Assembly: GCA_009914755.4 (NCBI GenBank)
Contig: CP086569.2
Coordinates: 24,608,001 to 24,672,000 of the forward strand
From: the human T2T-CHM13v2.0 reference genome, Homo sapiens
Reading direction: 5' to 3'
DNA length: 64,000 bases
In this document: positions 38,362-41,300 of the stretch, piece after piece
Layout: every line of letters begins with the position of its first letter
Position numbering within the stretch: the first letter of the stretch is position 1
Position numbers: made by a program

Positions 38362-41300
38362 TCAGAGAGAAGTCTGGTATACGCTTGGAAACCTATGTGT
38401 CTATCATCCCTAAGAACATTAATGTTTATTGAGAGTTTAATAAACATTAATGTTCTTAGGGATGATAGACACATAGGTTTCCAAGCGTATAGCAGACTTC
38501 TCTCTAAAATGAGGCTTGGGTTGTCCTCTTTCTGATAAATTCCCAGATTTAACAGAAAAGCTGCCTTCTGCCATGAGGACACATTGATATGAAAGTGTGA
38601 GAGGTACTCGTGCACTTCTTTACACTAACAGACATGTGAGGATGTATGACTCTAAACTACACGGCCTACAGTTCCTGCCTGCTTAATGTTTACTTTTCTA
38701 CCACTGTCCCTGGTTTTGGTCCCTGGAAGCTGCTGATTCATGGCAAAACCCCAGAGCTTGGAGTCAGAAGACTGAGTTTAAGTTCCAGTATTGCCTTTTT
38801 CTTTCCTTCTTTTTTTTTTTCTATCCATGATATCAATCACTCTCAGTCACTAAATGATTGTGACAACATCTTGTACAGTTGTTGGTGGCATTAAACCAGA
38901 TGGTGTATAAGAGTATTTTGTCAAAACTGTAAAGCAGGATGTGGCTATAGGGGCTGATTGTTCTCATGAGTGTTGCTGCTCTTCTTTCCCACAGTTAAAA
39001 GAATATTGGCAGAGGAAGAGCCCTGGCATTCCAGCAGGAGCTAACAGGAAAAAGAAAATCAATGGCAGTAGCCCTGACACAGCCACTTCTGGTGGTTACC
39101 ACTCACCTGGGGATGTGAGTCTTGGCTGGCCAGGGTCCTGGGGACAGGGGGCCTAAGGGGCAGTAGGGGGTAATTTTTAAGATTGTAGATGGACTATTGG
39201 GTACTGGTTAAGAATTCTGGGTTTGAATCCTGCCTCTCCGTCTGCTAATGATTGATTAGGGATTGATTAGCATATGATTTAGGGCAAGTTGCTTGAGGTC
39301 TTTGGGTCTCTGTTTTCACATCTGCATAATAGAGGTGGTATTTTTGACTTCCATTTGTGAAGTTTAAATCAGATTTGTTATTGCTTATATGTGAATCCTT
39401 AGTACATGGCCTGCTGTAAACACCCAGGACACCCAGGAAATGGTTGTTGTTTGATTTTCCTCATCCCCAGTCTCAAGGGGAAGCCAGTTAATGAGAAGAG
39501 ACACTTGCCATCAGGCTGTCCCTTTAGGAGTCACTGAAAGGGCCCCAGGGTGGGATGGTGGGGAGATAAGAACCATGAGAGAAGTTGGCACAAAGGAGTT
39601 ATGGGACAAAGGGTCCAAGATAGGCAGAAAAGAAGCTTTTGCCAGTTGATGGGGAAGAAAGGAAATCAGAGGGCTTAGACAGTGAGGGGGGACAGAACAT
39701 CTCCATGTGCACTCTCATCTCTTGCAGTCAGCAACAGGTATCTACGGGGAAGGCCATGCATCATCTGCTACCCTGGAGGATCTGGAGGTAAGAGGCCCTG
39801 GGCTGAGGTGCAGTGACCCTGCAGGCCAGCCCTCCAACCTCCTCCCACAGCAGGGGCTTGTTGCCCCTCTGCCAGCTGAGACAACCCACACCCTCCACCA
39901 GCCCTAATGATTGTTCTCTCTACCCCTCCCCACAATCTTCCTCCAACTCCTCCTCTCTGCATGCACCTCACAGCCAGTACCGAGAACTAGCAGTGGCCCT
40001 GCACTCAAGCTCCGCAATAATCAGTCAACTCAGTGAAAACATCAATTCACTGGTAAGAGTCCAGTGGGGTCCCCTGATTCCAGCTGGTCAATCCTGGACT
40101 CCAGTTTTCCCTTGGTGCCCTGAAGAAAGGGGCCAGGAGCCCCTGATGCCAAGGGCAAATGGGGAGCTGGGGCACCCAGGCCTCACCTGGAGGGACCCCA
40201 GAGCACAGAACATGCAGCATGGCTCTTCTGCACTGCCCTCTTTGCTGACTCTCTCTTCTCCAGACACCCTTGCTCTAGTTGTTGCCACACATGCCCTGGG
40301 GTTGTCATCTCTCAGGGAAGCACTAGCCTGACTGGTTGTCAGAGGCCCGTATTTCTGCCCTGCCTCAGCCCCTAATTTGCTTTTTGAGTCTGGACAAGCC
40401 ATCTCTCCTCCTTAGGCTCATGTTTCTGGAGGAGGTAGAGAGTATCAAAGGTCACTGTTAGCTCTGAGATTTAAAGGCCCCTAGAATGGAAACCTCAGGG
40501 CCAAGGGCTCCTGTCTGTCCTTTGCTGTCTTATATCTCTGCTATGAAGAATTGTACGTGCTCAGTAAATGTTTGTTGAATGAATGCACCTTTCTCAATCA
40601 CAAGGTGGCAGAAGGGGGGTGGGACTTTCTCAAACTCTGTCTCTAGAGGTTCAGCAGCCCCTCTCCAGGGCCCTTTCCCCTCTGTGCTTTGGGCAGGTCC
40701 ACGCATTGAAAGAGGGGAAGCAGCATGAGATACATTGGGTACAGAAGCTTGGGAGGAACTTGTTCAAACTCAAAAACCAGATGGTTAAGATGGGACTGGC
40801 ATGACCTAGGAGCAGGACTGGCATCAGAGGGCTGTGAGGGTGACTTAGAATGCCCCAGGGAGGAGGGTGGATGGAAGGGCTTTGAGGCAGAGGGAAAGAG
40901 GTCTGTGCCAGGAGATGGCAAGTCTTGTCATCTCCATGAACCTCAGTGTCCCTATCAGTAAAGAGGGAGGAGTGCCCATTGTCAGCCACCCACAGTGCTC
41001 TCTATCTGAAAGTGACTTTGAAGATTGGCTACCATCCGGGTGTGAGGAGTCATTAGCAGTGAGGCCAAGTTTGGGAAGCCTGAGAGGAGGAGCTGTCCAA
41101 CAAAGGGAGGTTTTTTTTTTTTTTTTTTTTTTTGAGAGTCCAGAGGCCCTTATTGTCTGCTTCCTTTCTCAGCTGAACCCCTGGCCCCAGAGCCCCCAGC
41201 AGGGCCCTCTGAGGTGGAGCAGCTACAAGATGAGACCAACCACCTAAGGAAGGAGCTGGAGAGTGTGGGAAGACAGCTCCAGGCTGAGGTGGAAAACAAT

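What the first reader, a model, noticed from the sequence alone, without database searches (positions are those of the whole stretch)
38365..38504. 140 bp near-perfect hairpin palindrome at the 5'-truncation junction of an intronic L1
It has 66-bp arms with a single mismatch around an 8-bp loop. It is AT-rich and able to form a very stable cruciform or hairpin. Its position immediately after the point where the L1 fragment (37318-38355) loses homology suggests three possibilities: a hairpin generated during L1 integration (twin-priming or 5' inversion-like repair), a MITE-type DNA-transposon relic that the L1 inserted next to, or an assembly artefact. Long perfect palindromes are rare in primate genomes and tend to be unstable.
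Basis: seen in the sequence. Interest (0 to 1): 0.5.

Follow-up and report, generated by a model that had tools for sequence, protein, structure and literature searches.

The report
Palindrome made by a botched L1 insertion
The hairpin-forming palindrome is real; related primate sequences lacking the insertion show it is not a transposon relic or an assembly error but a scar left when an L1 retrotransposon inserted and 74 bases of neighbouring host DNA were copied backwards next to it, an outcome so far reported, in the papers found here, only in cultured cells and tumours.

Summary
The palindrome is real and larger than reported: 162 bp (38354-38515), 77-nt arms, 2 mismatches, 8-nt spacer. 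It starts on the base where the antisense L1 fragment ends. Eight related GOLGA6L-like loci (langur, macaque, two gibbons, a bonobo paralogue, three human-derived contigs) lack the L1. They join window 37305 directly to about 38439-38445, with up to 19 bp matching both sides. So the right arm is ancestral host DNA containing the right-hand target-site duplication (TSD). The L1, left arm and spacer are one insertion between the TSD copies. The left arm (38354-38427) is an inverted copy of 38442-38515, runs across the L1 nick site, and carries substitutions specific to this locus. The centre (38425-38438) matches 14 nt of L1 ORF2 about 1.1 kb upstream of the truncation point, on the cDNA strand. 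One later A>T change (38441) lengthened the arms from 74 to 77 nt. Best reading: aberrant L1 integration, in which the opposite DNA end started second-strand synthesis on the cDNA, snapped back on itself, then rejoined the cDNA. This matches the 'L1 insertion with inverted duplication on the reciprocal end' class. MITE, twin priming and assembly artefact are rejected. The arms drift without compensatory changes, so no function is indicated. It is a new germline member of a known kind, of modest interest.

The parts
37287..37305 (+). Left copy of the target-site duplication (AAAAAATATTAATGTTCTT). It differs from the ancestral AAAAAACATTAATGTTCTT by a C>T at 37293.
   Evidence: In the best-resolved empty sites, one 19-bp stretch aligns to both 37287-37305 and 38439-38457 (L002 11193-11211, L003 11191-11209, L006 2492-2510).
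37306..37318 (-). L1 A-tail, read as poly-T with an AAAA interruption on the + strand. It follows the nick site TTCTT|AGGG of the + strand.
   Evidence: The nick position is inferred from the empty sites, which read ...ATGTACTT|AGGGATG....
37319..38353 (-). L1 part 1: the 3'-terminal ~1.03 kb of an L1 (end of ORF2 plus the 3' UTR), 5'-truncated at 38353/38354.
   Evidence: It is 90% identical to window 26543-27596 and 93% identical to 32467-33341. Homology stops at 38354, with 1 nt (G) shared with the arm. The ORF at 37526-38137 is near-identical to the ORF2 C-terminal ORF of another L1 copy.
38354..38427 (+). Left arm proper: a 74-nt inverted copy of the host target 38442-38515. It covers 16 nt of the target-site duplication plus 58 nt beyond the first-strand nick.
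   Evidence: It is absent from all 8 empty sites. It shares with the right arm the derived bases T16 and T28 that no listed empty site has.
38425..38438 (+). L1 part 2: TTTATTGAGAGTTT, a 14-nt exact match to antisense L1 ORF2 (RT domain). In L1 coordinates it lies ~1134 nt 5' of the truncation point. The first 3 nt (TTT) overlap the arm as microhomology. This piece supplies the spacer and the ATT that pairs with 38439-38441.
   Evidence: It matches window 28731-28744 on the same strand as the L1 cDNA and an independent L1 in L005. 0.3% of shuffled centres reach a 14-nt match. The source region encodes [13 protein letters not shown] within an RVT_1 hit.
38439..38457 (+). Right copy of the target-site duplication (AATAAACATTAATGTTCTT), which forms the inner end of the right arm. 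The T at 38441 is a derived A>T change that lengthened the stem from 74 to 77 bp.
   Evidence: Every listed empty site has A at that position, and so does the left copy of the duplication.
38458..38515 (+). The rest of the right arm: ancestral single-copy intron DNA downstream of the L1 nick. It carries the two derived substitutions (38492 C>G, 38506 G>A) that cause the two arm mismatches.
   Evidence: It is colinear with every empty site. The polarity of the substitutions comes from the outgroups.
38354..38515 (.). The whole palindrome (77-nt arms, 8-nt spacer 38431-38438).

Best explanation
The palindrome is a scar of one aberrant L1 integration (target-primed reverse transcription, TPRT) in the germline of an ape ancestor. 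Shown: L1 endonuclease nicked the + strand at ...ATGTTCTT|AGGG..., and the insertion is flanked by a 19-bp (at least 16-bp) target-site duplication. Between the two copies lie, in order: the A-tail; 1.03 kb of L1; a 74-nt inverted copy of the host DNA to the right of the insertion, which runs across the nick; and 11-14 nt of L1 ORF2 from ~1.1 kb further 5' in the element. Inferred: the cDNA first reached at least ~2.2 kb. The 3' end of the opposite (minus) strand at the other DNA end, the 'reciprocal end', began second-strand synthesis on the tip of the cDNA and copied 11-14 nt (AAACTCTCAAT[AAA]). It then came off and snapped back on its own T-run through an AAA:TTT microhomology. It copied 74 nt of its own strand, which is continuous across the first nick, and switched back to the cDNA 1.1 kb further along through a 1-nt microhomology. 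The skipped 1.1 kb of cDNA was lost. The result was a palindrome with 74-nt arms and a 14-nt loop. A later A>T change at 38441 made it 77 nt and 8 nt. It has no indicated function and has since decayed neutrally.
For: Eight empty sites join window 37305 directly to about 38439-38445, with up to 19 bp aligning to both sides. L1 homology ends on the first base of the left arm. The left arm is the exact reverse complement of the reconstructed ancestral right arm. It shares the locus-specific derived bases T16 and T28, and T16 is also in the left copy of the duplication. The inverted copy spans the nick site, so its template had to be continuous there, and only the minus strand is. The centre is a 14-nt exact match to L1 ORF2, on the cDNA strand and collinear with the main piece (P about 0.003). 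With it, every base of the insertion is accounted for by one later substitution. The alternative needs a 5-nt insertion plus two mirrored substitutions. The junction microhomologies are 1, 3 and 0 nt. The class is documented: bioRxiv 10.1101/2024.12.14.628481 (Fig. [quoted passage not shown] The window and the bonobo copy share every junction.
Against: The order of steps cannot be read from a finished product. A conventional 2.2-kb insertion followed by an unrelated deletion plus templated inverted insertion would give the same sequence. The 14-nt L1 match could be chance (about 3 in 1000 shuffles). Six of its bases (TTGAGA) also occur just 5' of the target-site duplication in the ancestral target, which offers a weaker competing origin. 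Which polymerase made the jumps (ORF2p, Pol theta, Pol delta) is unknown. Only two insertion-bearing copies were available, and both descend from the same event. The empty sites may be paralogues rather than orthologues, so the date is loose.
Confidence: 0.65

Rival explanations
1. Same single event, but the jumps were made by the first strand. The L1 cDNA 3' end left the RNA at the truncation point and primed on nearby target DNA, copying 74 nt. It then returned to the L1 RNA 1.1 kb upstream for 11-14 nt before joining the target.
For: Retroelement cDNA 3' ends do prime on nearby target DNA. [quoted passage not shown] The number of jumps is the same as in the preferred model.
Against: The template would have to be the + strand from 38515 to 38442. 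That strand is interrupted by the first-strand nick at 38457|38458, and its left part is the primer itself. A sister chromatid or homologue, or a jump across the nick, would be needed. The minus strand has no such break.
Confidence: 0.15
2. Two unrelated events. A conventional 5'-truncated ~2.2-kb L1 inserted first. Later a break or stalled fork inside it was repaired with loss of ~1.1 kb and a 74-nt templated inverted insertion (snap-back during polymerase-theta end joining, or microhomology-mediated replication switching).
For: Small inverted duplications with 1-15 bp of microhomology are the commonest inversion class in human germlines: 277 events with a median of 284 bp in 1,019 genomes (PMC12350158). 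The 1- and 3-nt microhomologies here fit that pattern.
Against: It requires the right-hand breakpoint to fall by chance within 11-14 nt of the L1 5' end in a 2.2-kb element, and the fold-back to start exactly at the target-site duplication. No intermediate allele was seen, and the two carriers share all junctions. During integration itself, a 3' end sitting at that spot is expected.
Confidence: 0.15
3. The palindrome is a miniature inverted-repeat DNA transposon (MITE) relic, and the L1 happened to insert beside it.
For: There is only the superficial look: a short palindrome with well-matched arms.
Against: The right arm is present and the left arm absent in eight empty sites. A MITE insertion would add both arms. 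No target-site duplication flanks the palindrome itself. The arm occurs once per locus in the window and in the ~165 kb of related primate DNA fetched. The arms share locus-specific substitutions.
Confidence: 0.01
4. Twin priming or 5' inversion of the L1.
For: The structure sits at the 5' junction of a truncated L1.
Against: Twin priming inverts the 5' part of the L1. Here the inverted segment is host DNA, and the second L1 piece has the same orientation as the first.
Confidence: 0.02
5. Assembly artefact (a chimeric or fold-back read).
For: Fold-back chimeras do occur in long-read libraries.
Against: The same structure is in an independent bonobo telomere-to-telomere assembly. Its junctions and centre are identical, and it has 6 private arm substitutions against 2 in the window. 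An artefact would be perfect and assembly-specific.
Confidence: 0.01

Closest known systems
L1 insertions with an inverted duplication of genomic DNA on the reciprocal end (bioRxiv 10.1101/2024.12.14.628481, Fig. 4A/D/E; one induced-L1 cell clone and one cancer genome)
   Same: Both have a polyadenylated, 5'-truncated L1 and a duplication-type overlap between the two target breakpoints. In both, an inverted copy of the host DNA from the side opposite the primed end sits between the L1 5' end and that overlap. A small hairpin with 2-3 nt of microhomology lies at the turn, and the proposed cause is a self-annealed 3' overhang that primes synthesis.
   Different: This one is germline, fixed, and old enough to sit in two loci 3.6% apart. 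It is resolved to the base. It carries an 11-14-nt second L1 piece at the hairpin tip, which implies that second-strand synthesis had already started on the cDNA before the snap-back. It is also coupled to loss of ~1.1 kb of L1.
Snap-back 5' junctions of R2-protein-mediated transgene insertion (PMC11371274)
   Same: Extra DNA-templated synthesis in inverted orientation occurs before the 5' junction forms, sometimes on nearby target DNA.
   Different: There the primer is taken to be the cDNA 3' end and the template is usually the cDNA itself. Here the copied DNA is the target and crosses the first-strand nick, which points to the opposite strand as primer. The element is also different (R2, not L1).
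Twin priming / 5'-inverted L1 insertions
   Same: Both are aberrant resolutions of the L1 5' junction that involve the second-strand 3' end as a primer.
   Different: In twin priming that end primes on the L1 RNA and inverts L1 sequence. Here it ended up copying its own strand and inverted host sequence.
Small germline inverted duplications with microhomology (PMC12350158)
   Same: The size class (tens to hundreds of bp) and the 1-15-bp microhomologies match.
   Different: Those are not tied to a retrotransposon junction. This one is bounded by an L1 5' end and an L1 target-site duplication.
Palindromic MITEs and the hairpin microRNA genes derived from them (own knowledge: e.g. MADE1 and the miR-548 family)
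   Same: It is a short palindrome in an intron that would fold into a long hairpin if transcribed.
   Different: It is not a transposon, is effectively single-copy, and has no family-level Rfam match. Its substitutions are uncompensated.

Membership tests
Endonuclease-dependent L1 insertion (TPRT) | A target-site duplication flanks the inserted material | tested here: met
   A 19-bp duplication, 37287-37305 and 38439-38457, shows 17/19 identity between the two copies. Each copy is one change from the ancestral sequence seen once in the empty sites.
Endonuclease-dependent L1 insertion (TPRT) | A 3' poly-A tail abuts the duplication, and the nick site is T-rich then purine-rich | tested here: met
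   The poly-T/A-tail lies at 37306-37318 directly after the left copy. The + strand reads TTCTT|AGGG at the inferred nick. The tail is short and interrupted.
Endonuclease-dependent L1 insertion (TPRT) | The inserted sequence is L1, collinear from the 3' end and 5'-truncated | tested here: met
   It is 90-93% identical to two other L1 copies over 37307-38354. The longer comparison copy carries an RVT_1 domain. The fragment's own ORF had no Pfam hit. The L1 subfamily was not determined.
L1 insertion with inverted duplication on the reciprocal end | An inverted copy of host DNA from the non-primed side lies between the L1 5' end and the reciprocal breakpoint, and the original is retained | tested here: met
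   38354-38427 is the reverse complement of 38442-38515. The original is colinear with the empty sites.
L1 insertion with inverted duplication on the reciprocal end | A small hairpin with short microhomology lies at the inversion junction | tested here: met
   There is a 3-nt TTT/AAA overlap at 38425-38427. The original loop is inferred to be 14 nt and is now 8 nt.
L1 insertion with inverted duplication on the reciprocal end | It was formed in the same event as the retrotransposition | not testable with these tools
   No intermediate allele was found among 10 related loci. The argument rests on breakpoint positions only.
MITE / non-autonomous DNA transposon | The whole element (both terminal inverted repeats) is present or absent as a unit | tested here: not met
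   The empty sites keep the right arm and lack the left arm.
MITE / non-autonomous DNA transposon | The element's own target-site duplication lies at its two ends | tested here: not met
   The flanks read ...GCTTTTG| and |TTGGGTT..., with no direct repeat.
MITE / non-autonomous DNA transposon | Many dispersed copies in the genome | tested here: inconclusive
   There is one copy per related locus and none elsewhere in the window or in ~165 kb of fetched primate DNA. No primate genome or Dfam was available. Scans of metagenome and bacterial contigs found nothing, but there was no positive control.
Twin-primed (5'-inverted) L1 | The 5' segment of the L1 is inverted relative to the 3' segment | tested here: not met
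   The only second L1 piece (38425-38438) is in the same orientation as the first.
Known structured RNA / microRNA precursor (Rfam) | The score reaches the family's gathering threshold | tested here: not met
   The best hit, MIR7993, scores 79.6 bits against a threshold of 100. All hits are generic long-hairpin matches, on both strands.
Functional hairpin under selection | Compensatory substitutions keep the pairing | tested here: not met
   There are 8 substitutions in the 4 arms of the two carriers. All are private to one arm and none is compensated. Only two sequences were available.

The most novel reading that the evidence does not exclude
This may be a nucleotide-resolution germline fossil of an L1 integration intermediate. 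The 11-14 nt of L1 at the hairpin tip would record that, in vivo, the top-strand 3'-OH at the staggered cut really did start second-strand synthesis on the very end of the cDNA. It then snapped back and re-engaged the cDNA 1.1 kb away. If so, L1 integration is a germline source of new palindromes and potential hairpin-RNA loci. A genome-wide class could then be found with one rule: an L1, Alu or SVA 5' junction followed by an inverted copy of the downstream flank that crosses the target-site duplication.
Probability: 0.4. Interest if true: 0.45.

Novelty: new member of a known kind. Interest (0 to 1): 0.3.

Why it matters
How L1 finishes integration is still poorly understood: second-strand priming, 5' joining, and why some events damage the target. 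Inverted duplications at L1 sites were found here only as one experimental clone and one tumour example. This locus shows that the same outcome entered and survived in the primate germline. It gives a complete base-by-base junction series (0-, 3- and 1-nt microhomologies, plus an L1 fragment at the hairpin tip) that constrains which strand primed what. It also gives a simple search rule for finding more cases in telomere-to-telomere genomes. Practically, it explains away an odd-looking palindrome. It is not a new repeat family or an assembly error, and nothing suggests it has a function.

Tried and rejected
(1) Deriving the spacer from the ancestral target alone (TTGAGAAAAAAC to TTGAGAGTTTAATAAAC) needs a 5-nt insertion plus two mirrored substitutions. 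I dropped this in favour of the 14-nt L1 ORF2 match plus one substitution.
(2) A fold-back centred on the perfect 12-bp palindrome AACATTAATGTT inside the target-site duplication would put the centre of symmetry at TTAA. That motif is instead present once in each arm, so I rejected it.
(3) Arm-to-arm gene conversion as the reason for near-perfect arms is not supported, because all 8 arm substitutions in the two carriers are private to one arm.
(4) Rfam gave only sub-threshold generic hairpin hits.
(5) Pfam on the ORF of the L1 fragment gave no hit, so L1 identity rests on nucleotide homology and on the RVT_1 hit of the longer copy.
(6) Exact-match scans of metagenome and bacterial-genome contigs for the L1/arm junction 23-mer and an arm 22-mer gave 0 hits each. 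These are uninformative without a positive control.
(7) Look-ups of P0004 (human GOLGA6L4) and P0010 (orangutan) returned no record. L005 (Nomascus) has no homologue of the flanks.
(8) A second protein search seeded with the bonobo protein found more paralogues but no further insertion-bearing locus with DNA on record.
(9) The source species of the window, the L1 subfamily and an absolute date could not be determined with these tools. No listed protein matches the window at 100%.
(10) Kojima 2010 (PMC2912911) was checked for earlier germline examples. It places such structures in an 'uncharacterized' bin and does not describe them.
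Full report
1. THE OBSERVATION

The palindrome exists.

The repeat continues for 11 more bases on each side. The true arms are 38354-38430 and 38439-38515, 77 nt each, with mismatches at 38363/38506 and 38377/38492, giving 162 bp in all.

- The arm sequences occur nowhere else in the 64-kb window, and none of 100 shuffles produced a match.
- As single-stranded DNA the region folds at -85.9 kcal/mol against -14.8 +/- 2.9 for shuffles, z = -24.
- It is 63% A+T against 57% for the window, so it is only mildly AT-rich.

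2. CONTEXT

The window is primate DNA carrying a GOLGA6L-like gene or pseudogene on the + strand. By comparison with a bonobo gene model (P0001), exon 1 is at 36713-36898 and exon 2 at 38995-39126. The feature therefore lies in intron 1.

To its left is a minus-strand L1 3' fragment. Its A-tail (poly-T on the + strand) begins at 37306. It is 90% and 93% identical to two other L1 copies in the window, and that homology stops at 38353/38354. Base 38354 (G) is shared by the L1 and the arm, so the palindrome begins on the very base where the L1 ends.

3. EMPTY SITES DECIDE WHAT IS OLD AND WHAT IS NEW

I used the GOLGA exons to find related proteins and fetched the genes that encode them, introns included.

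Eight loci lack the L1:
- langur (L002)
- siamang (L003)
- a bonobo paralogue on another chromosome record (L004)
- Hylobates moloch (L006)
- Macaca thibetana (L007)
- three human-derived contigs from gut, bile and other metagenomes (L008, L009, L010)

In these loci the sequence matching window ...37305 continues directly into the sequence matching about 38439-38445 onward. In the best-resolved cases one 19-bp stretch aligns to both 37287-37305 and 38439-38457. The empty site reads ...CTCTTGAGAAAAAACATTAATGTACTT|AGGGATGACAG....

Three conclusions follow:
- 37287-37305 and 38439-38457 are the two copies of a 19-bp target-site duplication.
- The right arm (38439-38515) is ancestral intron DNA.
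- The A-tail, L1, left arm and spacer were all inserted together between the two copies.

One further locus, L001 from the bonobo telomere-to-telomere assembly, is 96.4% identical to the window over 8 kb. It carries the same L1 and palindrome, with identical junctions and an identical centre.

4. THE LEFT ARM IS A COPY OF THIS LOCUS'S OWN RIGHT FLANK

I compared the four arms (two in the window, two in the bonobo copy) with four of the empty sites as outgroups.

- Both arms share T at arm positions 16 and 28, where all four outgroups have A and C. T16 is also in the left copy of the duplication. The copy was therefore made from this very locus after those changes.
- The window's left arm equals the reconstructed ancestor (0 changes).
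- The bonobo arms carry 3 changes each.
- All 8 changes are private to one arm and none is compensated. There is thus no sign of arm-to-arm conversion or of selection for pairing.

The inverted copy covers 16 nt of the target-site duplication plus 58 nt beyond the L1 nick (TTCTT|AGGG). Its template must therefore have been continuous across that nick.

5. THE CENTRE

The bases between the inverted copy and the right-hand duplication could not be derived simply from the ancestral target. They are explained by L1.

- 38425-38438 (TTTATTGAGAGTTT) is a 14-nt exact match to antisense L1 ORF2. It is found in the long L1 of the window at 28731-28744 and in an unrelated L1 in L005.
- The source lies in the reverse-transcriptase domain coding region.
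- The match is on the same strand as the L1 cDNA and ~1134 nt further 5' in L1 than the truncation point.
- Only 0.3% of shuffled centres reach a 14-nt match on either strand.

With this piece, the + strand reads as follows:
- left copy of the duplication
- A-tail
- L1 part 1 (to 38353)
- 74-nt inverted target copy (38354-38427)
- L1 part 2 (38428-38438, sharing TTT with the arm)
- right copy of the duplication

The predicted sequence differs from the observed one at a single base, 38441 (A>T). That change is shared by the window and the bonobo copy. It happens to pair with the L1-derived A at 38428, which extended the stem from 74 to 77 bp and shrank the loop from 14 to 8 nt.

6. MECHANISM

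Shown: this is a standard endonuclease-type L1 insertion (duplication, A-tail, T-rich nick site, 5' truncation) with two extra segments at its 5' junction.

Inferred, preferred model:
- The cDNA reached at least ~2.2 kb.
- The minus-strand 3' end at the other DNA end began second-strand synthesis on the cDNA tip (0-nt microhomology) and copied 11-14 nt.
- It then detached and snapped back on its own T-run (AAA:TTT).
- It copied 74 nt of itself. The minus strand is the only strand that is continuous across the first nick.
- It switched back to the cDNA 1.1 kb further on, through a 1-nt microhomology.

Which enzyme did this is unknown.

This is the model drawn for 'inverted duplication on the reciprocal end' in bioRxiv 10.1101/2024.12.14.628481. 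There a self-annealed 3' overhang with about 2 bp of homology primes synthesis. The authors found one such case in an L1-induced cell clone and one in a cancer genome.

7. RIVALS

- First-strand switching. The cDNA 3' end itself might have primed on nearby target DNA, as reported for R2-based insertion (PMC11371274). This is less likely because the + strand template is broken at the nick.
- A later, unrelated rearrangement. A normal 2.2-kb L1 might have suffered a deletion with a templated inverted insertion. Small microhomology-bounded inverted duplications are common in human germlines (PMC12350158). But the breakpoint would have to fall by chance within 14 nt of the L1 5' end, and the fold-back would have to start at the duplication.
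- MITE, twin priming and assembly artefact each fail a direct test (see the membership table).

8. COMPARISON AND NOVELTY

This is an old, germline-fixed member of a recently described class of L1-induced local rearrangements. It sits in two loci 3.6% apart, and its arm divergence of about 2.6% is of the same order.

What it adds is base-level resolution and the small L1 piece at the hairpin tip. I found no earlier germline description. An older survey of lineage-specific insertions places such structures in an 'uncharacterized' bin (PMC2912911).

There is no evidence of function. Rfam gives no family-level match and no compensatory changes are seen.

9. LIMITS

- No primate genome or Dfam search was available.
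- The source species, the L1 subfamily and the absolute age are undetermined.
- The empty sites may be paralogues rather than orthologues. This does not affect the structural inference but does loosen the dating.
- Only one independent origin of the filled allele could be examined.

Noticed in passing
window 38443-38454 and 38415-38426; left duplication copy 37291-37302: The target-site duplication contains a perfect 12-bp palindrome, AACATTAATGTT. A lineage-specific A>T change made it perfect; the listed empty sites read ...AATGTA. A self-complementary 3' overhang might have hindered normal annealing to the cDNA and favoured the aberrant outcome. This is speculative.
   Followed up: partly
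arm positions 54 and 68: window 38492 and 38506 (right arm); L001 left arm: The same two arm positions were hit independently in the window's right arm (C>G, G>A) and in the bonobo copy's left arm (C>T, G>C). Neither is a CpG site. Two coincidences among 8 substitutions in 77 positions has roughly a 5% chance (own estimate). Unexplained.
   Followed up: partly
window 26543 to about 31100 (minus strand) and 32467-33341 (minus strand): There are two further L1 copies. One is long, with recognisable ORF1/ORF2 pieces and an RVT_1 domain but many stops. The other is a second 3' fragment. Both served as comparison sequences.
   Followed up: partly
window 36358-36503 and 36513-36658: Two adjacent ~146-bp units cross-match each other in every related locus, a tandem duplication just upstream of exon 1. 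Overlapping ORFs there show repeated PQAQPPWA-type peptides.
   Followed up: no
window 38995-45010: The GOLGA6L-like gene looks degenerate. Several exons of the GOLGA2-type coiled coil are missing, and tblastn alignments cross in-frame stop codons, for example around 42908-43156 and 44357-45010. It is probably a pseudogene or a truncated paralogue.
   Followed up: no
window 49485-49554 / 49764-49833 and 56248-56296 / 56446-56494: Two other inverted-repeat pairs (70 nt at 87%, 49 nt at 86%) have 150-210-nt spacers. The second pair is made of poly-A/poly-T tails and looks like facing Alu-type elements.
   Followed up: no
window 33706-34124: A purine/pyrimidine-skewed low-complexity stretch gives long spurious ORFs on both strands (K/E/R-rich on one, F/L/S-rich on the other).
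   Followed up: no
L008, L009, L010 (ENA human gut, bile and other metagenome assemblies): Contigs labelled as metagenome assemblies are plainly human GOLGA6L-paralogue DNA, that is, host contamination. They were useful here as extra empty sites.
   Followed up: yes
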